64,000 nt of DNA, from positions 404,550,001 through 404,614,000 of the forward strand of contig OZ024741.1 in NCBI GenBank assembly GCA_964016885.1, in the 5' to 3' direction. Below are positions 12,688-55,570 of this stretch, in pieces (within the stretch, counting starts at the first letter, position 1; the number at the start of each line of letters is the position of its first letter). This DNA comes from Eledone cirrhosa (lineage: Eukaryota). Position numbers and translations under genes: made by a program. Under the pieces are notes generated by a model, which was given only the letters and a program-made list of their open reading frames with translations, was not told where the DNA came from and ran no database searches.

Positions 12688-12857
12688 ATATATATAGGGG
12701 AGGGAGAGAGAAAGAGATAGAAAACGAATAAAGTTTCTTCGACCCCAATTATGTATGTTTTTATGTATTTATGTATGTGAGTAATATATGTATGTGTGTA
12801 TGTATATATGTATCTATGTATATATATATATATGTATGTATGTATATATGTATGTAT

Positions 12858-13461
12858 GGTCACCAGTTGGTGCTACTGGTAACATGTATCCCAGTACAAC
12901 CTGTCTCATGGTCGGGTCGTTGGCGACTAAACTGGCAAGCCCACCAAGGTTTCTTGGTGAGGAGGGTGACTTTGGACATCCTGCAGGACTAAAAACAAAA
13001 CCTGTCAAAGGGCAAAGGAGCTCTTAAGAGTTAATGGCCATCCAAAATCACCGGGAGAGATGACCCCTTAGCCTCTGTCAAGGCAGAATTCTAGGAGAAG
13101 GAAAACTCTGATATAACACCTGCAACCCTGATGGTATCCAATGATGTTGACTTGTTCTTCTTTTTGGTAAATATCATCTTGGTTAAGAGAGTGGGACTGG
13201 CTTTGTGCAGTGCCTTTGCTCACTATAAAAGCTTCACGGCACAGGCATTGCTTTATATCTGGAGATCTCTCTGCACTTCTCGTCACATGGTACCATATGC
13301 CCAGCACTATGTGTCAATAATTGTCACAAGTGTAGTGTTTGTACCAGAGTTTTCAAGTCACTGGCTGGACTAAAAAGTCACACTCGTTCAGCGCATCGGT
13401 AGGGGTTCTCCTACATGGATATAAAGTAGTGGCCGTACTCGAAAACGAGTTGGAAGCCACC
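12858..13461 (+). mobile_element. RTE-derived ~600-bp non-autonomous retroelement, copy 1
   Basis: 5' region has the RTE-like ggagaaggaaaactctga motif. The 3' region encodes a terminal zinc finger CSVCTRVFKSLAGLKSHTRSAHR* and ends in an (ATGT)n tail. Five copies in the window. Confidence 0.75.
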
Positions 13462-13500
13462 ATGTATGTATATATGTATATATGTATGTATATATGTATG

Positions 13501-13726
13501 TTCTTCTGGTTTTATAATTTCACAGATTTTTTCCCAATAGAGAGAGAGTCAGTTTCTAACATAGTTACAAGACTCTCTCATTAGAATTTACACATCAACT
13601 AGGTAGATTATGTATGTATGTCTGCATGTGTAGATATGGATGTTAGTGTATGAGTGGATGTGTATGTTTTGAGTTGTATGTGTGCATGTGTATATGTTTT
13701 GTATCTGTACATGTGTATATGCAGTA
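13501..13726 (-). mobile_element. R4/Dong-type LINE 3'UTR-only insertion
   Basis: Matches the 3' end of the 15028-19084 element (ttcttct.gttttataatttcaca...gactctctc...tgcagt). Confidence 0.8.
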
Positions 13727-13804
13727 ATTATGTATGCATGTATGTATGAATGTATGTACGTAAGTATGTTCGTGTGTATGTATGTATGTACGTATGTATA
13801 TATG

Positions 13805-14411
13805 CCAGGTCTCCAGTTGGTGCTACTGGTAACATGTATCCCAGTACAACCTGTCCCATGGTCGGGTCGTTGGCGACTAAACTGGCAACCCCACCAAGGT
13901 TTCTTGGTGAGGAGGGTGACTTTGGACATCCTGCAGGACTAAAAACAAAACCTGTCAAAGGGCAAAGGAGCTCTTAAGAGTCAATGGCCATCCAAAATCA
14001 CCGGGAGAGATGACTCCTTAGCCTTTGTCAAGGCAGAATTCTAGGAGAAGGAAAACTCTGATATAACACCTGCAACCCTGATGGTATCCAATGATGTTGA
14101 CTTGTTCTTCTTTTTGGTAAATATCATCTTGGTTAAGAGAGTGTGACTGGCTTTGTGCAGTGCCTTTGCTCACTATAAAAGCTTCACAGCACAGGCATTG
14201 CTTTATATCTGGAGATCTCTCTGCACTTGTCGTCACATGGTACCATGGGCCCAGCACTATGTGTCAATAATTGTCGCAAGTGTAGTGTTTGTACCAGAGT
14301 TTTCAAGTTGCTGGCTGGACTAAAAAGTCACACTCGTTCAGCGCATCGGTAGGGGTTCTCCTACATGGATATAAAGTAGTGGCCGTACTCGAAAACGAGT
14401 TGGCAGCCACC
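13805..14411 (+). mobile_element. RTE-derived non-autonomous element, copy 2
   Basis: Near-identical to copy 1. Confidence 0.75.
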
Positions 14412-14449
14412 ATGTATATATGTATGTATGTATGTCTTTATATATGTAT

Positions 14450-14745
14450 GTTTTCTCTTTCTCTTAATTTCGAGTATATTTTTTGACCGGCCACCTTCCT
14501 GGTGGCAAGGTTGTAAAAGAAAAGAAATTGGTCATCCATTGAATCGCAAGAATGTTTTGCAAATTTTGAAGGTGTCAGCTATCGCAGCCATTTGTAGACT
14601 ATGAATTAGGGAGCTGCGTTTTTTGTCCGCAAATCCAAGTTCAGTCATACTTTGCTCCAAGCGGGTTGGTATATAACCCGTAGCACCAATAACGATGGGT
14701 ATGAAGCTAAAGGTGTATCTTGGATACTGGATTTGTCAACTCCTC
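14450..14745 (-). mobile_element. 3' fragment of a second, related R4-type LINE family
   Basis: Minus translation ...YPRYTFSFIPIVIGATGYIPTRLEQSMTELGF...FKICKTFLRFNG* is paralogous to the C-terminus of the main R4 element but has a different 3'UTR. Confidence 0.75.
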
Positions 14746-15027
14746 ATGTATGTATATATGTATCTATGTATGCATATATGTATGTATTTATGAGTATAAG
14801 TATGTATTTATGTATGTAAGTATGATGTTTGTCTGTATGTTTATGTTTGTGTGTGTGTATGTATGTATATGTGTGTGTATAGATGTTATTGTATGTGTGG
14901 ATGTGTATGTTTTGAGTTGTATGTGTGCATGTGTATATGCTTTGTATCTGTACATGTGTATATGCAGTTAATATGTATGTATGTATGTATGTATGTATAC
15001 TTGTGTGTGAGTATGTATGTATGTATG

Positions 15028-18000
15028 TTCTTCTAGTTTTATAATTTCACAAATTTTACCAATAGAGAGAGAGTCGGTTTCTAACATAGACACAAGACTC
15101 TCTCATTGGAATTTACACAACATCAACTAGGTAGATATGTATGCATGCATGCATGTGTAGATATGGATGTTATTGTATGTGTGCATATGTATATGCTTTG
15201 CATCTGTACATGTGTATATGCAGTTATTGGATGCAAAATGTTTGGAATGTTTTACATATTTTTACTGTTCCATTAATGGATTGTACTTGTAATTTCCTAA
15301 ATAGTTGTGTTCTTTCTGTTCCTGTGAAGCCTAGCTTCGCAAGATTTGTATTGAGACAGTTACTAATATACCCCAGTGCCCCAATAATCACAGGCATAAA
15401 TCTGAAGGTGTAATCAGGGTGGAGTATCTGCAGATTTCTCATCAGCTCTGCATAAATATTCTCCTTTTCGCTAATCTTTGATATTATATTGGCATCTGCT
15501 GGGCAGCTAATTTCCACTACTGTGCATGCTTTCTTCTCCCTGTCCCATATCATAATATCTGGTCTGTTATGCCTGCATTTTATTGGGGTTTTTACTGGAA
15601 CATTCCACCAGTACTCTTTCATATTATGTACATGGATGTCTTCCACATTGCTGTAGTTTCAATGTGTTTATTATCGAGGCTATCTTTTTTACGAACTGCA
15701 TTGTACAGTGCTTTGGCCACTACATCATGCCTCATAAGTAGATAGTACCGCGATGACATCTTTGGACAGCTGCTGATGACATGGGTGATATCCTCGATGT
15801 TAGTTCTGCAGAGTCTGCACTTGTTATCACATGTAGGTGTTTTGCCTGCATCCCTATCTCTTTTGTGAATCAGGTATTTCGTGTTAATCTCCTGTTCTTG
15901 GATTGCAAAAGCGTATCCTTTAAAGTGGGAGCCAATATAGCGGTTGTTGGTCCAAGATAGACTACTTTCCTTATCTATATTACTCTCACTCTGGAGCTTC
16001 CTGGCAACATATCCATGCATGATTTTTTGCTGATAGGCATGCAGTTTTTCATCCATGGATTTACTGCGATACTGATGAGCGACTTCCCTGGGTGTGAGTT
16101 TTTTTATTATCACGCAGGCAATGTCTCTCCAGGAGTTCCTTCCCAACTCTCATGATCATATCTGTTTCATGCAGATAGACTTGCTTGAGAAACGGGCTCC
16201 TACGCTTCGAGGTTCGTAGATGTTGTCGGTGAGATATGATGCGACATTCAAATGTTGTCAGGACTGATGTTAGGCCTCTGCCTCCTTGCTTACGTTTCAA
16301 GTAAAGGCGGTCTATGTTACTGTTGATGTGGAAGTTTCCGGTGTTGTTTTAGTATTTTTCGAGTTCCAACATCAACTGCTCGGATTTCGTCTATCGTCCA
16401 ATTGAGTATTCCAAACGTTGGTGTTAGGACAGGCACAGCAAACACATTGTGAGCCTCTGTTTTGTTTTGTGCAGAGAGTTCCGATGACCAGATCTTTCTG
16501 AATCGGGTGTAGTATTCCCTGGTTACACGTTCTTTATTACAGATACCATTATAGGATATGTTCTCATCTATCACCAGGTATCTGTAGCCGTCCTCATCAG
16601 ATAACGGTGAAACAGTTAGACCATTGATGACAATGTTGCTAGATTGGGTTGTTTATTTCCCCGCTTTACAGTCATGTATGAGCATTTATCTTGGACAATC
16701 TCCATTCCTATGTTCTTTGAGAACGTTGTAACCAGGTCAAGATTTTTCTTCATCTCATCCATGTTCTTGGCATAGAATTTCAGATCGTCCACAAAGAAAT
16801 TATGGGTTAGGTTTGTATTTCTGTCCTCCTGTGAGCCAATGATGTATCCCTCACATTTCTTGAGCAGAAAGGCCAAGGGGTTTAATGACAAGATGAATAA
16901 TATCACAGAGAGACTGTCCCCCTGAAATTTACCCCTGCAATATTTTATTTTATCAGTGAAAATAGAGTCATCCTTCTCTGTCTTTAACCTTAGGATAGTA
17001 GCCCAACAAGAAGACAGCCTCTCTATGGCTCTGACAATAATGTCTGGGACTTTAGCAAGTTGGAGGGCCTCTATCATCCAAGAGTGGGGAACAGAATCGA
17101 AAGCTTTCCAGTAGTCCAGCCAGACTGTAGTCATATTCCTCCTAAGTTGTCGCACCTCCAACATCGCAGTTTTGTTGATTAGGAGTTGTTCAGCACATCC
17201 TCAAACCCTTTTTTTTCCAGCTGCTTGTTCATCTGTGATGATGTTATTATTTTCACAGTAATCTTGGAGGAATAGGTTCACGCAGGCTGTATATATCTTA
17301 TACATCAGGTTCTGGCATGCCATGGGTCGGTAGTTTTTGCCAAGTGGGTGTCTTTGTTCTTGGGGACCAGTAACGTTTGTGCTAATTTCTCCCATTCTGG
17401 TATAAGTGTATCTCTCTTAAGAACTTGTTGGTAGAGGTCAGTAAGATACCTCCGATAGAATATCAGTTTTTTGTACCAGTAGCCGACAATCATGTCTCTT
17501 CCTGGTGTTTTCTTATCTTGGAGTTTTCCTATCACAGTCTCAGGGGTACCCTCACTTATTTCGTATGTTTTTGTTGTAGTGTAGGAGCAATAGTTCTTTC
17601 GGATTTCTCTTAGCCACACTGCATCTTGGTTGAAATTCTTCTTTTCACCCCATATTTTGGATGGGGCCTCAGTGACACTTATTATTTTGTTCTTCATATC
17701 TCTATAGACTGATGTTTGGTTTCGTCTGAATCTTTTATTAAGCACTTTCCTCTCATCCACCTCCTTGCAAGTATCGGCGTTTTTCGCATACAGCTCTCAA
17801 TTCTTGTTTGAGGGTGATCAGCTTATATTGAAGAGTTCTGGTTCTACTGTTACCAAACATCGTCTCTATTTTATTTTTCACTCTTTGTTGGTGAGGAGTG
17901 AGTTTTTTTTTGTGTAAGGAGCATTGTCACATATCCTATGTTTTTTCGTAGGTCAGCAATCTTTTTTTCTATTTTAGTTATATATGATGGTATTTTTGGT

Positions 18001-19084
18001 GGTGTTCTGTTCTTGTTAATATCTCTGCTATCACCAAGATAATGCTTCACTATCGTTGCTAAAGCATATAAACAGGCGTTGATTTGTCAAAATGTTGGGG
18101 TTTTCATCCCTCCTAAATATTCATCCCCTATTTCATCAATAACACGTAATATTTCATTATTTGTTTTTCTATTGAACATTGTCGTTTTAACACGTTCAGC
18201 AAGAGAGATATTTATACATGAATTAATTTCTCTCTGGAAGATTTCGTTGAGGGAAATTTTCAATTGTTTATACTTTTGATTATTATCACTATCGATAGTA
18301 TTTTCCACAATAGTCGAGGTAGACTCGGATGGTACACGTGGCGTCAAATTTCTTCGATTATTATTATTATTTCTTCGATTATTATTATTATCGATAGTGT
18401 TTTCCCCAGCATTCGAGGTAGACTTAGATGGTACAGGTGGTGTCAAGTTTCTTACAGGCATAGTTTTTTCAATGTGCTGTTCGACCTGGCTGCTAGGAAG
18501 TCTAGTAGCATGGCGACCTGTAGCACGTGTTGTTGATTCCATGTTTGTTGTGGGGGACTTACAATTAATAATATTTATCTTATTTTTACGTTCAACAAAC
18601 GTCGGTTGTTGGCGTAAATGTTTCGCTGTGAAGTAATTTAGCTCTGGGTGCATTTCGTCCCAGTGTAGCTTCATTCTATTCATATAGCCAATGGAGGGAT
18701 TGTTTTTTGCCATTTTATAACAATTAAATAAAACATTATTAAGTTCGCAACTCCAAGAGAAATGCGATTTATAATTTCGGTCTCTTCTGTAGCTACAACT
18801 GAATAAAGTTTGATAACATTCTTGTTGGTTGTCCTCGGTACTTCCTTAATTTTGTTGTTGTTGTTGTGTTCAGCCATGCTGTTTGTAGCAAATCCTTGTA
18901 AAATGAATTATGTATTTAGTCGGATATCTCTACGAATTCGAATAAAAGGTGTCTTCAGTGGATATAGTTAGAAGAATAACCAGTTATTCAACCTAACTGT
19001 AGTTGCGGCATTACTGTCGGAGATGGTATTCATCTTAAATTTAATAGTCTCTCACGCCAAAATATGCGACTGATCGCGTTGACT
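15028..19084 (-). mobile_element. Near-full-length, frameshifted R4/Dong-clade RLE non-LTR retrotransposon embedded in (TATG)n
   Basis: N-terminus GYMNRMKLHWDEMHP. RT motifs NYRPMAC, WLDYWKAFDSVPH, FQGDSLS and FFVDDLK. CCHC finger CRLC..EDITHVISSC, then RHD and RLE motifs HNRPDIMIWD, VEISCP, KENIY. (CATA)n tail. Confidence 0.92.
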
Positions 19085-19825
19085 GTATGTATATGTATGT
19101 ATATATGTAAATACATATATATATGTATATGTATCTATGTATTTATGTAAGTATGTTTGTGTGTATGTATGTATGTATGTGTGTATGTATGTGTGTATGT
19201 ATGTATGTATGTATGTTTTTATATATGTATGTATGTATGTATCTATGTATGCATATATGTATGTATCTAAGTATGTATTTATGTATGTATGTATGTTTTT
19301 ATATATGTATGTATGTATGTATCTATGTATGCATATATGTATGTATCTAAGTATGATGTTTGTATGTATGTATATTTTGTGTGTGTGTATGTATGTATGT
19401 ATGTATGTATGTATGTATGTATGTATGTATATATATGTATATATGTATGTATGTATATATATATGTATGTATGTATGTATATATATATGTGTGTATATAT
19501 ATGTATGTATGTATATGTATGTATATGTGTGTGTATATATATATGTATGTATATATGTATGTATGTATATGTATATGTATGTATATATATATGTATGTAT
19601 ATGTATATGTGTATGTATATATATATATATGTATGTATGTATATATATATGTATGTATATATATATATATATGGGTATGTATGTATGTATGTATGTATGT
19701 ATGTATGTATGTATGTATGTATATATTTACTCTTTTACCTGTTTCAGCCATCCGGCTGAGGCCATGATGGGGCATGTATGTATGTATGTATATGTGTATG
19801 TATGTATGTATATATATATATATGT
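19085..19825. repeat. (TATG)n/(TA)n compound microsatellite
   Basis: Directly visible. Confidence 0.95.
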
Positions 19826-19827
19826 AT

Positions 19828-19950
19828 GTGAAGGCGTGTGGCTGAGTGGTTAGAGAATTGTATTCGCAATCGTAAGGTTGTGAGTTCGATTCCTGGACCA
19901 GGCGATGCGTTATGTCCTTGAGCAAGACACTTTATTTCACGTTGCTCCTT
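19828..19950 (+). mobile_element. tRNA-derived SINE family A (head)
   Basis: gtgaaggcgtgtggctgagtggttagag...gagttcgattcc...ccttgagcaagacacttt. Confidence 0.8.
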
Positions 19951-20100
19951 CTACCTGGAGTTGCGACCGATAGATAGTATTAGCAATTGGAAAGACCAAC
20001 GGAAACATTGTTCCCTCGGTCCGATTTGACAAAAAGTCGATCGTTCCTTTATTTTATATATGTATGTATATAAATATGTATATATGACATGTATGTATTA

Positions 20101-21000
20101 ATTAAAATAACAGATTAAAGTTTAAGCAAAGAATCGCTGCTTTCACCCTTAACGGGATCTTCTGAAACTAACAAAGTCAATCTGTAAACGCAGAACGTCT
20201 CCGAACCTTCATGTATTTATTTGTAGGTATGTGTGTGCGCTTGTTATATACGTATTTATTTACTTATATACGTTTATATAATTATTTATTTATTTGTACA
20301 CAAGCATACACACATACACATATTTATATGTGCGTGGTTTTGTATACCTATGGTAAGGTTTTGCGTATGCTTGTGTATGTACGTATCTGTTTGCGTGTAT
20401 GTATTTATTTGTTCCTATTACTTCTGTATTGTATTTATTTACTTTGTTCTTAACTCTGTAGCGGAGATTCATTCGGTCTCCTAGTTAGAATTTTAGTCTA
20501 CGACTTCTGCTATACCATTTACGTGGTTTCGTCTTTGCACGCTATTGTTCTCCACGCTCCACATATGACTTATTATCTTCGTTTTTTCGTTCATTGCCAG
20601 AGAACGTCTCTATGCACCACAACATAAGTCCACGACCTCTTTTATACCATAAACGTGGTTCTGTCCTTGCACGTAATTGTTTTTCACCGCTCCTATTAAT
20701 GACGTATTATTCGTTTTTTCCCGTTCTTTGCCAGCGAACGTTACCATGAACCAAAGTATCGTCTTCCTGTCTTCCTCCGGTTGCAACGTTTTTTGAAATA
20801 TCCAGTTCTGCGTTTACAGATTGACTTTGTTAGTTTCAGAAGATCCCGTAAAGGGTGAAAGCAGCGATTCTTTGCTTAAACTTTAATCTGTTATTTTAAT
20901 AAATATTTGCTCTTCGGTTCTTATATATTCGATATATATTTTCCTTATCGAGCCCTCTCTGGATTTTAGTCTTCAATTTTATTATTATTACTATGACATG
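20101..21000 (+). mobile_element. Penelope-like insert with 96-bp inverted repeats containing a hammerhead-like fold
   Basis: 20101-20196 is the reverse complement of 20805-20900, with an internal ~130-bp tandem duplication at ~20500-20750. Confidence 0.55.
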
Positions 21001-21040
21001 TATGTATATATGTATGTATGTATGTATGTATATGTATATA

Positions 21041-21598
21041 TGTCTCATGGTCGGGTCGTTGGCGACTAAACTGGCAACCCCACCAAGGTTTCTTGGTGAG
21101 GTGGGTGACTTTGGACATCCTGCAGGACTAAACACAAAACCTGTCAAAGGGCAAAGGAGCTCTTAAGAGTCAATGGCCATCCAAAATCACCGGGAGAGAT
21201 GACCCCTTAGCCTTTGTCAAGGCAGAATTCTAGGAGAAAGAAAACTCTGATATAACACCTGCAACCCTGATGGTATCCAATGATGTTGACTTGTTCTTCT
21301 TTTTGGTAAATATCATCTTGGTTAAGAGAGTGGGACTGGCTTTGTGCAGTGCCTTTGCTCACTATAAAAGCTTCACGGCACAGGCATTGCTTTATATCTG
21401 GAGATCTCAATACACTTGTCGTCACATGATACCATGGGCCCAGCACTATGTGCCAATAATTGTCACAAGTATAGTGTTTGTACCAGAGTTTTCAAGTCGC
21501 TGGCTGGACTAAAAAGTCACTCGTTCAGCGCATCGGTAGGGGTTCTCCTACATGGATATAAAGTAGTGGCCGTACTCGAAAACGAGTTGGCAGCCACC
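21041..21598 (+). mobile_element. RTE-derived non-autonomous element, copy 3 (slightly 5'-truncated)
   Basis: Near-identical to copy 1 from tgtctcatggtcgg onward. Confidence 0.75.
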
Positions 21599-21671
21599 AT
21601 GTATGTATGTATGTATAACCATACTCGATAGCGAGGGGGCAGCCATCATGTATGTATATATGTATGTATGT

Positions 21672-22287
21672 CAAGTCACCAGTTGGTGCTACTGTTAACA
21701 TGTATTCCAGTACACCCTGTCCCATGATCGGGTCACTGGCGACTAAACTGGCAACCACATCAAGGTTTCTTGGTGAGGAGGGTTACTTTGGATATCCTGC
21801 AGGAATAAAAACAAAACCTGTCAAAGGGCAAAGGAGCTCTTTAGAGTCAATGGCCATCCAAAATCACTGGGAGAGATGACCCCTTAGCCTTTGTCAAGGC
21901 CGAATTCTAGGAGAAGGAAAACTCTGATATAACACCTGCAACCCTGATGGTATCCAATGATGTTGACTTGTTCTTCTTTTTGGTAAATATTATCTTGGTT
22001 AAGAGAGTTGGGACTGGATTTGTGCAGTGCCTTTGCTCACTATAAAAGCTTCACGGCACAGGCATTGCTTATATCTGGAGATCTCTGATCTCTCTGCACT
22101 TGTCGTCACATGGTACCATGGGCCCAGCACTATGTGTCAATAATTGTCACAGGTGTTGTGTTTGTACCAGAGTTTTCAAGTCGCTGGCTGGACTAAAAAG
22201 TCACACTCGTTCAGCGCATTGGTAGGGGTTCTACTACATGGATATAAAGTAGTGGCCGTACTCGAAAACGAGTTGGCAGCCACCACC
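21672..22287 (+). mobile_element. RTE-derived non-autonomous element, copy 4
   Basis: Full-length, slightly more diverged copy with a long pure (ATGT)n tail to 22370. Confidence 0.75.
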
Positions 22288-22322
22288 ATGTATGTATGTA
22301 TGTATGTATGTATGTATGTATG

Positions 22323-22353
<31 letters not shown>

Positions 22354-22371
22354 TGTATGTATGTATGTATG

Positions 22372-23411
22372 TTCTTCTGGTTTTATAATTTCACAAAGAT
22401 TTACCAATAGAGAGAGAGTCGGTTTCTAACATAGACACAAGACTCTCTCATTGGAATTTACACAACATCAACTAGGTAGATTATGTATGCATGCATGTGT
22501 AGATATGGATGTTATTGTATGTGTGGATGTGGATGTTTTGAGTTGTATGCGTGCATGTGTATATGCTTTGTATCTGTACATGTGTATATGCAGTTATTAG
22601 ATGCAACATTTTTGGAATGTTTTACATAATTTTACTGTTCCATTAATGGATTGTACTTGTAATTTCCTAAGTAGTTGTGTTCTTTCTGTTCCTGTGAAGC
22701 CTTGCTTCTCAAGATTTGTATTGAGGCAGTTACTAACATACCCCAGTGCCCCAATAATCACAGGCATAAATCTGAATGGGTAATCAGGGTGGAGTATCTG
22801 CAGATTTCTCATCAGTTCTGCATAAATATTCTCCTTTTCACTAATATTTGATATTATATTGGCATCTGCTGGGCAGCTAATTTCCACTACTGTGCATGCT
22901 TTCTTCTCCCTGTCCCATATCATAATATCTGGTCTGTTATGCCTGCAGTTTATTGGGGTTTTTACTGGAACATTCCACCAGTACTCTTTCATATTATGTA
23001 TATGGATGTCTTCCACATTGTTGTAGCTTTTAATGTGTTTATTATCGAGGCTATATTTTTTACGAACTACATTGTACAGTGTTTTGGCCACTACATCATG
23101 CCTCATAGGTAGATAGTACCGCGATGACATCTTTGGACAGCTGCTGATGACATGAGTGATATCCTCGATGTTAGTTCTGCAGAGTCTGCACTTGTTATCA
23201 CATGTAGGTGTTTTGCCTGCATCCCTATCTCTTTTGTGAATCAGGTATTTCGTGTTAATCTCCTGTTCTTGGATTGCGAAAGCGTATCCTTGAAAGTGGG
23301 AGCCAATATAGCGGTTGTTGGTCCAAGATAGACTACTTTCCTTATCTATATTACTCTCACTCTGGAGCTTCCCGGCAACATATCCATGCATGATTTTTTG
23401 CTGATGTGCCT
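22372..23411 (-). mobile_element. 5'-truncated (~1 kb) copy of the R4/Dong-type LINE
   Basis: Open frame HQQKIMHGYV...CRLC..H...C...RHD...HNRPD...CKTFQKCCI* plus the shared 3'UTR. Confidence 0.9.
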
Positions 23412-23799
23412 GTATGTATGTAAGTATGCATGTATGTATGTACGTGTGTATGTTTGTGTGTATGTATATATGTATATATGTATGTATGTATGCATCTAAG
23501 TATGTATTTATGTTTGTATGAATGTATGTATGTATGTAAGTATGTTTGTATGTATGTATATGTTGTATGTATGTATGTTTGTATGTACGTAATATGTATA
23601 TGTTTGTGTGTATGTATGTAAGTATGTTTGTGTCTATGTATGGCTGTAAGTATGTATATGTGTGTGTGTATGTATGTATGTATATGTTTGTGTCTATGTA
23701 TATGTTTGTATGTGTATTTATATGTACGTACATGTTTGTGTGTATGTATGTATGTGTATGTTTGTGTCTATGTATGTATGTATGTATATGTTTGTATGT

Positions 23800-24254
23800 A
23801 AAGGGCAAAGGAGCTCTTAAGAGTCAATGGCCATCCAAAATCACCGGAAGAGATGACCCCTTAGCCTTTGTCAAGGCAGAATTCTAGGAGAAGGAAAACT
23901 CTGATATAACACCTGCAACCCTGATGGTAATCAATGATGTTTACTTGTTCTTCTTTTTGGTAAATATCATCTTGGTTCAGAGAGTGGGACTGGCTTTGTG
24001 CAGTGCCTTTGCTCACTATAAAAGCTTCATGGCACAGGCATTGCTTTATATCTGGAGATCTCTCTGCACTTGTCGTCACATGGTACCATGGGCCCAGCAC
24101 TATGTGTCAATAATTGTCACAAGTGAAGTGTTTGTACCAGAGTTTTCAAGTCGCTGGCTGAACTAAAAAGTCACACTCGTTCAGCGCATTGGTAGGGGTT
24201 CTCCTACATGGATATAAAGTAGTGGCCGTACTCGAAAACGAATTGGCAGCCACC
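23800..24254 (+). mobile_element. RTE-derived non-autonomous element, copy 5 (5'-truncated)
   Basis: Begins at aagggcaaaggagctc and ends ggcagccaccatgtat. Confidence 0.75.
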
Positions 24255-50270: not shown

Positions 50271-50643
50271 TAATATATTTTCTTCATTCATAACTATGTG
50301 GCACTGCTGGGGTAGCTCTATCATCAACACCGGTATTTATATTATAAACTTGGGAAGAAAAACTGCATTGTAATGAATTTGGACAAAGTCTCTAGGGTCT
50401 ATCTGGAACACGAAGGTTCATCAGGCCTGGGCAACACACAACCCATTGTAGGAATCGAACCCACGACATTATGATCGTAAGCCAAACACCCTTACCAACA
50501 GGCCACACCTCTCCTCAAAAGAGAGCGTAAAAGGGCTGTAACCACATAAGTCGATGTGTTTTGTCAAAAACTCTATCGATTCTGAAAATCTAACTTGGCC
50601 AGTCAATAGAATTGCTAAACTATTAGAAATGTATGTTGGTATC

Positions 50644-51358
50644 CGATTGTTGTTTGTTGTTGTTGAGCCTCGGCTCATCAGATTGTTGTTTGTTGTTGAA
50701 TCTTGGCTCATCAGATTGTTGTTTGTAGTTGAATCTTGGCTCATCAGATTGTTGTTTGTTGTTGTTGAGCCTTGGCTCATCAGATTGTTGTTTGTAGTTG
50801 AATCTTGGCTCATCAGATTGCTGTTTGTTGTTGTTGAGTCTCGGCTCATGAGATTGTTGTTTGTTGTTGAGGCTCGGCTCATCAGATTGTTGTTTGTTGT
50901 TGAATATTGGCTCATCAGATTGTTGTTTGTTGTTGTTGAATCTCAGCTCATCAGATTGTTGTTTGTTGTTGAGGCTCGGTTCATCATATTGCTGTTTGTT
51001 GTTGTTGAGTCTCGGCTCATCAGATTGTTGTTTGTTGTTGAGGCTCGGCTCATCAGATTATTGTTTGTTGTTGAATCTTGGCTCATCAGATTGTTGTTTG
51101 TTGTTGAATCATGGCTCATCAGATTGTTGTTTGTTGTTGTTGAATCTCAGCTCATCAGATTGTTGTTTGTTGTTGAATCTTGGCTCATCAGATTGTTGTT
51201 TGTTGTTGTTGAGCCTCGGCTCATCAGATTGTTGTTTGTTGTTGATCCTCGGCTCATCAGATTGTTGTTTGTTGTTGAATCTCGGCTCATCAGATTGTTG
51301 TTTGTTGTTGATCCTCGGCTCATCAGATTGTTGTTTGTTGTTGAATCTCGGCTCATCA
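50644..51358. repeat. 33/36-bp minisatellite, about 21 units
   Basis: Unit ctcggctcatcagattgttgttt(gtt)2-3gaat, varying in length by one GTT. Confidence 0.95.
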
Positions 51359-51999
51359 ATATTAATGGATTAATTGAGCAAACTCATGATGAAAAGGATT
51401 CGAACCATAGCAATCCAGTGTTTTTAATTCTATATATTGTTACATTATCCAATGTCTCTGTCCGTTTTTAATATTGTGAAAATTCATTTCAGGAGGGAAA
51501 TTTGACTGCTACTTCTAGCAAGTCAGCCGACAACATATAGCAGTATAGATTAAAAATAAAGCTCATTTTATAAGCTGTGTCCATGTTATTAAGTGGAGAA
51601 TAATGTTTCCGGAAGTACATTTATTATTATACATTTAAGGGGTATTTTTATTTGCTTTATTTGTTAAAAGTTGTTGGAGTTTTTGTTGTTGCTTTTTACA
51701 TGAAACCCTGTTTACAGTGTTTATTTTATAACTTTGTTAAAGAATATTTATAAAGTCTGGTGGTTAACTTTGAAATATTTGCATATCTGCATGGTTTAAT
51801 GAACAGGGGTCTATAGAACAAATGAGGGGAGGCCTTATGCAGGTATATTTGTTTTACTAACAGAACTAATAAGTGTCAGTGATTGTTTTGCTCGTGTTTA
51901 TTGATATTCGGGATATGTGTAGGTGTGTGTGGGGGGGGGGGGGCGTAATTGTTTTGTTTTATTCTGTCTTTGTTTTTTTTATTTTCTTTGTTTTCTGAG

Positions 52000-54174: not shown

Positions 54175-55570
54175 TTTTTATTTCCATGTATCTACCACAC
54201 GTGCGCATGCCAACAAAGTCAGAAAACAGCACAGTTCCCATGACTTTCGGAAACATTTTTTAACACTCAGAGTTGCTGAAGCATGGAACAAACTACCTGC
54301 ATCAGTTGTTAGCTGTCGAGACACTGCATCCTTTAAAACCTCCATGGAACAAACTACCTGCATCAGTTGTTAGCTGTCGAGACACTGCATCCTTTAAAAC
54401 CTCCATGGAACAAACTACCTGCATCAGTTGTTAGCTGTCGAGACACTGCATCCTTTAAAACCTCCATGGAACAAACTACCTGCATCAGTTGTTAGCTGCT
54501 GAGACACTGCATCCTTTAAAACCTCCATGGAACAAACTACCTGCATCAGTGGTAGCTGTCGAGACACTGCATCCTTTAAAACCTCCATGGAACAAACTAC
54601 CTGCATCAGTTATTAGCTGTCGAGACACTGCATCCTTTAAAACCTCCATGGAACAAACTACCTGCATCAGTTGTTAGCTGCTGAGACACTGCATCCTTTA
54701 AAACCTCCATGGAACAAACTACCTGCATCAGTTGTTAGCTGTCGAGACACTGCATCCTTTAAAACCTCCATGGAACAAACCACCTGCATCAGTTGTTAGC
54801 TGCTGAGACACTGCATCCTTTAAAACCTCCATGGAACAAACTAACTGCATCAGTTGTTAGCTGTCGAGACACTGCATCCTTTAAAACCTCCATGGAACAA
54901 ACCACCTGCATCAGCTGTTAGCTGTCGAGACACTGCATCCTTTAAAACCTCCATGGAACAAACTACCTGCATCAGCTGTTAGCTGTCGAGACACTGCATC
55001 CTTTAAAACCTCCATGGAACAAACCACCTGCATCAGTTATTAGCTGTTGAGACACTGCATCCTTTAAAACCTCCATGGAACAAACCACCTGCATCAGTTG
55101 TTAGCTGGCGGGACACTGCATCCTTTAAAACCTCCATGGAACAAACTACCTGCATCAGTTGTTAGCTGCTGAGACACTGCATCCTTTAAAACCTCCATGG
55201 AACAAACTACCTGCATCAGTTATTAGCTGCCGAGACACTGCATCCTTTAAAACCTCCATGGAACAAACTACCTGCATCAGTTGTTAGCTGCTGAGACACT
55301 GCATCCTTTAAAACCTCCATGGAACAAACTACCTTCATCAGTTGTTAGCTGCCGAGACACTGCATCCTTTAAAACCTCCATGCTTCCTGAGATTCACCAA
55401 CACTACACCTGATATTCCCCCTCCATACACACGCACACATGTATATCATGACTCATACACTATTCACTTCCCTGACATTTGTATATTATTCTATGTACTA
55501 TACATGCATCTTTGATGAGTTGTAGTGCACCTGAGCACTGTACACAATAATTTCATTATTATTATTACTA
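54175..55570 (+). mobile_element. CR1-type LINE 3' end containing an 18 x 61-bp tandem amplification
   Basis: TRAHANKV...RKHFLTLRVAEAWNKLPASVV..FK is a CR1 ORF2 C-terminus. Tandem units span 54282-55378, then the ORF resumes (MLPEIHQHYT*) before a 3'UTR and (TTA)n tail. Confidence 0.88.

What the first reader, a model, noticed from the sequence alone, without database searches (positions are those of the whole stretch)
12858..24254. Two retroelement families appear coupled through a (TATG)n landing pad: RTE-type tails host oppositely oriented R4/Dong-type LINEs
Seen: within 11.4 kb there are five plus-strand RTE-derived elements ending in (ATGT)n and four minus-strand R4-type insertions ending in (CATA)n. 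Every one is flanked by TATG-type repeat. Three times an R4-type 3' end abuts an RTE-element tail (13461/13501, 14411/14450, 22287/22372). Orientation is fixed within each family, with no exception. Known: R4/Dong-clade RLE elements are often sequence-specific (Dong inserts in TAA repeats), and RTE elements end in short tandem repeats. Inference: both families target the same tetranucleotide repeat with opposite polarity and each insertion adds new target sequence, giving a self-growing retroelement/microsatellite island.
Basis: partly seen in the sequence, partly recalled or inferred. Interest (0 to 1): 0.75.

Follow-up and report, generated by a model that had tools for sequence, protein, structure and literature searches.

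The report
Two retrotransposons share one TATG repeat
Two unrelated kinds of jumping gene sit in the same TATG/CATA microsatellites across this animal genome, almost always facing opposite ways, likely because each cuts a different strand of a repeat that was already there rather than because one builds landing sites for the other.

Summary
Five plus-strand 604-bp elements are internal-deletion derivatives of a 4.07-kb RTE-like LINE. The four minus-strand pieces belong to two Dong/R4-like families. All sit in (TATG)n, and the five RTE copies are not local duplicates. The pattern is genome-wide: at least 27,863 RTE and 5,669 R4A 3' ends, 131 short tail-to-tail junctions, and 16 of 16 consecutive chromosome-1 pairs opposite.

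The 'RTE tails host R4' coupling is not supported. R4 ends have RTE neighbours no more often than random TATG arrays do (21/87 vs 16/58). Head-to-head is as common as tail-to-tail. 30% of RTE ends run straight into (AT)n, so the tail is largely target DNA. A distant R4 relative (48% protein identity) from a metagenome contig sits in (CATA)n with the same polarity, and six others sit in (CTTA)n.

Best reading: two independent, strand-specific uses of a pre-existing microsatellite; self-growth is at most modest. Not found in the papers searched: a CATA/CTTA-targeting Dong-like lineage and a microsatellite-preferring RTE. This scan has noted the same system before at other places in this genome.

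The parts
12750..12857 (+). (TATG)n/(TA)n array, left edge of the island
   Evidence: TRF period 4, 27 copies
12858..13461 (+). E1: full 604-bp bipartite non-autonomous RTE-like element; 18-nt TSD-like match
13462..13501 (+). TATG spacer between the E1 3' end and the D1 3' end
13502..13730 (-). D1: 229-bp 3' end of R4A, the most diverged copy here (median 8% from other copies)
13808..14411 (+). E2: full bipartite RTE-like element; 11-nt TSD-like match
14452..14745 (-). D2: 5'-truncated 3' end of the second RLE family R4B (end of ORF plus 3' UTR)
14858..14973 (-). fragment like the degenerate CATA-rich tract of the R4A 3' UTR, inside TATG repeat
15029..19083 (-). D3: near full-length R4A, ORF broken into pieces; 19083 is the family's 5' end
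   Evidence: RVT_1 E=3e-17; 29 of 29 other loci start at nt 1-3
19084..19726 (+). long (TATG)n array, ~163 units
21041..21598 (+). E3: RTE-like element truncated at nt 45
21620..21648 (+). ~30-bp 3' end of a second RTE-like family, same polarity
   Evidence: the same 3' motif occurs in background loci L091, L102, L152, L162
21675..22287 (+). E4: full bipartite RTE-like element, most diverged of the five (median 4.7%)
22288..22372 (+). (ATGT)21 spacer between E4 and D4
22373..23410 (-). D4: 5'-truncated R4A with open CCHC knuckle and RLE domain (270 aa)
23411..23799 (+). degenerate (TATG)n array, ~100 units
23800..24254 (+). E5: RTE-like element truncated at nt 150

Best explanation
An RTE-like LINE with its 604-bp derivative and two Dong/R4-like LINEs sit in (TATG)n arrays on opposite strands throughout this genome, likely because each family independently nicks and primes on a different strand of a repeat that was already there. 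Shown: the junctions are RTE...GCCACC|AT(G/A)TAT and R4A...CCAGAAGA|ACATAC, both at the T|A step of the repeat, and the repeat lies on both sides even of 5'-truncated copies. Inferred from the standard target-primed reverse transcription model: the R4 protein (Myb/SANT-like N-terminus plus RLE nuclease) recognises CATA/TATG and nicks the TATG strand. The RTE APE nuclease nicks alternating purine-pyrimidine tracts and uses only primers ending in AT, which fixes its polarity in TATG and also lets it use (TA)n. TATG arrays are scarce (~45 islands per Mb), so tens of thousands of insertions pile into the same long arrays and give polarised stacks like this one. Target duplications and slippage would add a little repeat, but neither family needs the other.
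For: Polarity: the 3' flank is CATA-sense in 56 of 58 R4A and 48 of 48 R4B ends and TATG-sense in 110 of 119 RTE ends. The 5' flank is TATG in 68 of 81 RTE copies (37 of 48 truncated) and CATA in none; it is CATA in 27 of 29 full-length R4A. Genome-wide, 4,706 of 5,669 R4A ends abut RTATGT and 24,380 of 27,863 RTE ends abut ATRTRT. R4 avoids the commoner (TA)n, 751 arrays against 73 per Mb. No excess RTE-R4 association beyond the shared array. A 48%-identical full-length relative on a metagenome contig lies in (CATA)n on both sides with the same polarity and a similar 3' junction (L292). RTE-RTE clustering of 13 of 99 is within the 7-28% expected from array availability. Base-pairing of LINE RNA ends with the nicked strand is proposed for RTE in PMC6007223 (Discussion).
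Against: Short tail-to-tail junctions are 131 against 5,669 R4A ends (at most 2.3%), versus 7 of 908 background TATG sites near an RTE end (0.8%). This possible 2-3-fold excess rests on small background numbers and on two insertion orders both giving the junction. 18 of 53 RTE-anchored loci had an R4 end nearby against 9 of 58 arrays and 1 of 8 background RTE; those anchors are top-scoring hits and an unbiased listing gave 10 of 100 for R4A alone. 15 of 49 truncated R4 copies had a non-repeat 5' flank, mostly internal deletions by eye. Five of 39 mixed loci break the polarity. No nicking was measured and exact cut sites are blurred by microhomology. Survival bias after insertion was not tested.
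Confidence: 0.72

Rival explanations
1. One reading: RTE lays down (ATGT)n tails from its own RNA, R4 then targets those tails, and the island grows by feedback.
For: 131 exact short tail-to-tail junctions genome-wide, with spacers down to a few bases; 0 same-strand RTE-to-R4A-5' junctions within 14 nt. Possible 2-3-fold excess of short junctions. R4 ends also abut other RTE subfamilies. Lepidopteran RTEs do seed microsatellites between their TSDs (PMC2887409 passages). TSD-like matches of 10 nt or more in 9 of 81 RTE copies against 4.2% in swapped flanks.
Against: 30% of RTE ends have no ATGT in the first 8 nt. RTE 5' flanks are already TATG. Only 9 of 70 background arrays follow an RTE end. 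No enrichment over random arrays, and head-to-head is as common. D1 is more diverged than its RTE neighbour E1 (8% against 3%). The CATA target is kept by a distant relative.
Confidence: 0.17
2. Passive accumulation: the elements insert loosely, carry or later grow repeat tails, and survive preferentially in repeat-rich neutral regions.
For: RTE also uses (TA)n. Passive accumulation near CA repeats is proposed for Drosophila Waldo-A/B (PMC3812793 passage). The R4A 3' UTR contains a degenerate CATA-rich tract of its own.
Against: The repeat lies in fixed phase and strand at variable 5' truncation points. R4 avoids the tenfold commoner (TA)n arrays. Sister RLE families in the same genome end in (TAA)n instead.
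Confidence: 0.07
3. The cluster is a local tandem duplication of one RTE+R4 composite unit, or an assembly artefact.
For: 12836-13730 aligns with 21648-22599 at 88%. Tandem R4 repeats with identical spacers do occur at other loci (L059, L104, L074).
Against: The five RTE copies differ by 2.5-4.9%, like random pairs (3.4%). Each has its nearest relative and tree sister elsewhere, and only one rare allele is shared. Truncation points differ and D2 is another family.
Confidence: 0.03

Closest known systems
Dong (Bombyx mori), DongAg, DongBg, Darwinula Dong1/2; R4 clade
   Same: Single-ORF architecture with RT, CCHC knuckle and RLE nuclease, Myb/SANT-like N-terminus without zinc fingers, microsatellite target, fixed polarity (PMC7998251 and PMC3812793 passages).
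   Different: The target is (CATA)n, and (CTTA)n in relatives, not (TAA)n. R4A is only 31-33% identical to the TAA-ending RLE elements of the same genome and groups apart from them with metagenome relatives.
RTE clade LINEs, including RTE-2_OV of Octopus vulgaris, and bipartite non-autonomous RTEs (RTESINE, MAR4, WALLSI3, Bov-A)
   Same: APE directly after the 5' UTR, RT, C2H2 fingers, short 3' UTR, microsatellite at the 3' end; derivative made of 5' and 3' ends (PMC9115989 and PMC5786205 passages).
   Different: The repeat is on both sides and mirrors the local target. In lepidopteran RTEs it lies between the TSDs and is newly made. RTE is not among the groups named as holding most target-specific families (PMC4640811 passage). 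Identity to RTE-2_OV was not tested.
Waldo (R1 clade; WaldoAg1/2, WaldoFs1)
   Same: Targets ACAY microsatellites, which include ACAT (PMC3812793 passage).
   Different: An R1-clade APE element. The repeat target itself is therefore known, but not for R4 or RTE in the papers seen.
TRAS/SART on telomeric (TTAGG)n (opposite orientation recalled from memory; TRAS target)
   Same: Two families use one repeat on opposite strands.
   Different: Both are R1-clade APE elements at telomeres. Here an RLE and an APE element from distant clades share an interstitial microsatellite.

Membership tests
R4 clade (Dong-like) | Reverse transcriptase domain | tested here: met
   RVT_1 E=3e-17 in the window, 2e-24 in L212
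R4 clade (Dong-like) | C-terminal CCHC knuckle, RHD motif and PD-(D/E)xK RLE | tested here: met
   CRLC..EDITHVISSC, MRHD and RPDIMIWD..VVEISCP; the best solved relatives are R2 proteins, E=1e-13
R4 clade (Dong-like) | No N-terminal zinc fingers (unlike R2; NeSL, CRE and HERO recalled) | tested here: met
   381-aa N-terminal frame of L214 shows no zinc-finger motif and no Pfam finger hit
R4 clade (Dong-like) | Divergent N-terminal Myb/SANT-like domain | tested here: inconclusive
   Residues 50-117 model as three helices, pLDDT 78-92. Match to the ISWI nucleosome-recognition module Z=6.8, rmsd 2.4, 72 aligned; ZZZ3 Myb E=2.7; both weak; no Pfam hit. The motif is homologous to that of TAA-ending elements in the same genome, E=7e-10.
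R4 clade (Dong-like) | RT phylogeny with named R4/Dong references | not testable with these tools
   No labelled R4/Dong sequences were available; homologues were unnamed; the tree has only unlabelled rows
R4 clade (Dong-like) | 5' HDV-like ribozyme (reported for some R4 and RTE elements) | tested here: inconclusive
   No Rfam ribozyme hit; own descriptor found 0 hits in three 5' ends and had no positive control
Dong proper | (TAA)n target | tested here: not met
   104 of 106 R4A/B 3' ends are in CATA-sense repeat; so filed as Dong-like, not Dong
RTE clade | No ORF1; APE then RT in one ORF after the 5' UTR | tested here: met
   In L255 the APE frame (E=5e-13) begins ~455 nt after the 5' end; RVT_1 E=3e-21 in L254; copies are broken, so the domains were read from different copies
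RTE clade | RT phylogeny with named RTE references | not tested
   Assignment rests on architecture and on a C-terminal pattern recalled from memory
RTE clade (lepidopteran paradigm) | Self-made microsatellite tail inside the TSDs at non-repeat sites | tested here: not met
   Repeat on both sides in 72 of 81 copies; 30% of ends run into pure (AT)n
Bipartite non-autonomous LINE | Only the 5' and 3' parts of an autonomous partner in the same genome | tested here: met
   nt 1-427 and 425-604 match the two ends of ~4.07-kb elements L250, L254, L255 at 95.6-98.6%

The most novel reading that the evidence does not exclude
A previously undescribed, widespread Dong-like lineage has switched from TAA to four-base C(A/T)TA targets through its Myb-like N-terminus, which carries a lineage-specific YRRNRxY-type motif. 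In this genome it shares CATA arrays with a target-selective RTE, and their strand-opposed insertions, duplications and slippage feed back to build and rearrange multi-kilobase islands, helping to explain the genome's microsatellite load.
Probability: 0.3. Interest if true: 0.72.

Novelty: new variant of a known kind. Interest (0 to 1): 0.52.

Why it matters
Microsatellite targeting by Dong is known, but only for (TAA)n in the papers seen. Related elements on TAA (this genome), CATA (this genome and one distant relative) and CTTA (other organisms) form a natural series for finding what sets RLE target choice, which bears on R2-type gene-insertion tools. An RTE that lands in, rather than makes, its microsatellite would add RTE to the target-selective LINE groups and tests the RNA-primer pairing model. 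Both groups are reported as recently active in Octopus vulgaris (PMC13282606 passages). Knowing their landing sites would change how polymorphic or somatic insertions and microsatellite markers are read in such genomes.

Tried and rejected
Rfam over the island: only sub-threshold low-complexity miRNA and similar matches, no ribozyme. HDV-like descriptor scan: no hit, no positive control. Homologue names: none useful. Single-sequence fold of the N-terminal domain: pLDDT 50, not searched; whole-model fold searches were dominated by generic helices. Empty-site test with public runs: contigs were short and repeat-collapsed and none spanned the island, so nothing was concluded. One motif hit (L044) was dropped as spurious before the tail-to-tail count (11 to 10 of 58). 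L079 in the tree is a mixed R4A/R4B projection and was ignored; rows under 250 positions (L144) were left out. My first estimate of the RTE preference for TATG (110 of 119) came from top-scoring loci and overstates it; the whole-genome count gives 30% pure (AT)n. The order of insertion could not be settled for E2/D2 and E4/D4. PMC3124438 passages were not relevant; PMC4400214 is not held; paper searches returned mostly unrelated papers. Supplements, Repbase entries and Kojima & Fujiwara 2004 were not seen and could already list these targets.
Full report
1. What is in the window. The window lies at G000:C2:404,550,001-404,614,000 of a 3.0-Gb animal genome; that it is octopus-like is my inference from repeat content and was not tested. 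Between 12,750 and 24,350 there are 140 perfect TATG units on the plus strand and no CATA units. Five copies of a 604-bp element lie on plus and four RLE-LINE pieces on minus, at the coordinates given, with three tail-to-tail junctions. A 1-Mb evenly spaced background held 12 young RTE, 1 R4A and 4 R4B 3' ends, so the cluster is far beyond uniform chance.

2. Identity of the plus-strand element. Its 3' part encodes the last C2H2 finger of a longer ORF. A protein search found the partner family. Three ~4.07-kb copies (L250, L254, L255) carry element nt 1-427 at their start and nt 425-604 at their end at 95.6-98.6% identity, with APE (E=5e-13), RT (E=3e-21) and C2H2 fingers and no ORF1. It is therefore a bipartite internal-deletion derivative of an RTE-like LINE, a known class (PMC5786205 passages). 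An Octopus RTE with a C2H2 finger and a microsatellite 3' UTR is described (PMC9115989 passages); identity with it was not tested.

3. Identity of the minus-strand elements. 15029-19083 is near full length: 29 of 29 other loci start at its nt 1-3. The family protein has RT, a CCHC knuckle, RHD and a PD..E RLE, no N-terminal zinc finger, and a three-helix N-terminal domain with weak Myb/SANT-type matches. 14452-14745 is a second family, 53% identical in protein. The background also holds RLE elements only 25-37% identical that end in (TAA)n, the canonical Dong target, and they share the N-terminal motif. I file R4A and R4B as Dong-like R4-clade elements, not Dong proper; a tree with named references could not be made.

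4. Not a local duplication. The window's RTE copies differ by 2.5-4.9% (other pairs 3.4%), each has its nearest relative and tree sister elsewhere among 54 copies, and truncation points differ.

5. The pattern is genome-wide. 3' flanks: CATA-sense in 56 of 58 R4A and 48 of 48 R4B ends, TATG-sense in 110 of 119 RTE ends (anchors are top-scoring hits, window loci excluded). 5' flanks: RTE 68 TATG, 4 TA, 9 other, 0 CATA of 81; R4 33 CATA, 15 other, 1 TATG of 49 truncated copies and 27 of 29 full-length. Exact counts: 5,669 R4A ends, 4,706 abutting RTATGT; 27,863 RTE ends, 24,380 abutting ATRTRT and 8,395 abutting ATATATAT; 131 tail-to-tail junctions within 16 nt; 0 same-strand RTE-to-R4A-5' junctions. 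In the consecutive chromosome-1 listing, 8 of 23 R4A ends have an RTE end within 1.5 kb (1.5% expected), and 11 of 11 pairs (16 of 16 within 5 kb) are opposite. Among fetched loci 34 of 39 mixed loci are wholly opposite. At least three of the five exceptions (L175, L180, L196) show inverted flanks by eye.

6. Is there coupling beyond the shared target? Given a TATG array, a young RTE end lies within 1.55 kb in 16 of 58 background cases; for R4 anchors it is 21 of 87 (p=0.70). Tail-to-tail within 120 nt is 10 of 58 against 10 of 75 (p=0.63; one spurious motif hit dropped). Head-to-head is 6 of 29. Only 9 of 70 background arrays follow an RTE end. RTE-RTE neighbours (13 of 99) fall within the 7-28% expected if insertions are spread over about 45 islands per Mb. 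Against this reading, short junctions are up to 2.3% of R4A ends versus 0.8% of background sites (7 of 908), and RTE-anchored loci had R4 neighbours in 18 of 53 cases. A weak excess is not excluded.

7. Does each insertion add target? The RTE tail mirrors the local target: 30% run into pure (AT)n, and tails can be 6-7 nt. This differs from lepidopteran RTEs, whose repeat is newly made between the TSDs (PMC2887409 passages). TSD-like matches of 10 nt or more occur in 9 of 81 copies against 4.2% in swapped flanks; E1 has 18 nt and E2 11 nt. Growth by duplication is real but small; slippage is inferred. In E1/D1 the R4 piece is the more diverged (8% against 3%), the reverse of 'RTE hosts R4'.

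8. Outside evidence. A metagenome scan returned 25 loci, of which I examined 11 near-complete ones for repeats. L292 (48% aa) is flanked on both sides by (CATA)n in the same polarity, with a similar 3' junction and 5' motif. Six (L286, L287, L288, L290, L291, L293) touch (CTTA)n, three had no repeat in the contig, and L300, which groups with the TAA type, has (AAT)n upstream. The four-base-target elements group apart from the TAA type. Four-base targeting is thus a property of the lineage and does not appear to depend on this RTE, although RTE content of those organisms was not examined.

9. Mechanism. Shown: junction phase at T|A, opposite strands, repeat on both sides. From established target-primed reverse transcription (own knowledge): the nicked strand is the one opposite the element's sense, so R4 primes on the TATG strand and RTE on the CATA strand. 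Inferred: R4 reads the repeat through its Myb-like and RLE domains, as argued for Dong (PMC7998251 passages). RTE needs a primer ending in AT that pairs with its RNA end (model in PMC6007223, abstract and Discussion read), which explains both its polarity in TATG and its use of (TA)n. All three opposite RTE-RTE pairs within 5 kb on chromosome 1 include a copy without an ATGTAT junction (read). Per available base, TATG is still strongly preferred: 2,348 bp of TATG against 50,738 bp of TA per Mb.

10. Novelty. Dong's listed target is (TAA)n, and ACAY is listed for R1-clade Waldo (PMC3812793 passages). Most target-specific families are placed in the early-branched, Tx1 and R1 groups (PMC4640811 passages). 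Both Dong-R4 and RTE are listed as recently active in O. vulgaris, with no target given in the passages seen (PMC13282606). Eight searches found no paper on CATA/CTTA-targeting R4 elements or on this pairing; Repbase, subscription papers and supplements were not seen. This scan's earlier unreviewed notes describe the same system at other places in this genome; they are not counted as support. Verdict: real, a new variant of known target-specific LINEs, with the coupling claim reduced to a shared target; interest 0.52.

Noticed in passing
window 26809-48137: 21-kb satellite of a 22-bp unit, TATG-skewed on the same strand as the island, with higher-order periods of about 4.5, 5.4, 3.6, 6.3 and 10 kb.
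   Followed up: partly
window 20096-20905: 810-bp element with 101-bp inverted repeats at 98%; very abundant (61 hits in 800 kb of background); other runs show many internal deletions. MITE-like by appearance.
   Followed up: partly
window 19826-20033: Plus-strand SINE-like repeat inside the TATG island, with about 80% copies elsewhere in the window; looks tRNA-derived from memory, ARAGORN finds no tRNA.
   Followed up: partly
RTE element nt 194-203 (window ~14001-14010): 5' truncations cluster here (12 of 81 copies) and related families share only nt ~13-190, suggesting a module boundary or an RNA structure or cleavage site; no HDV-like fold was found.
   Followed up: partly
window 13730 and 14973; L011, L069, L193, L242: Many R4A pieces stop about 210-240 nt from the 3' end, at the edge of an internal degenerate CATA tract; possibly a short derivative family or an internal target.
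   Followed up: no
L059, L074, L085, L104, L216: Head-to-tail tandem R4 copies, several with identical spacers, so local duplication does occur at other islands.
   Followed up: no
L107, L113, L147, L155, L277, L284: RLE relatives ending in (TAA)n in the background sample; L277 holds three.
   Followed up: partly
L189/L217: Full-length R4A preceded by (CAGT)n, a repeat of its own first bases; shorter CAGT repeats occur at L179, L186 and L193.
   Followed up: no
window 50542-51471 and 54282-55382: A 309-codon open frame made of a ~33-36-bp tandem repeat with no Pfam hit, and a 61-bp tandem repeat of about 18 copies at 96%.
   Followed up: no
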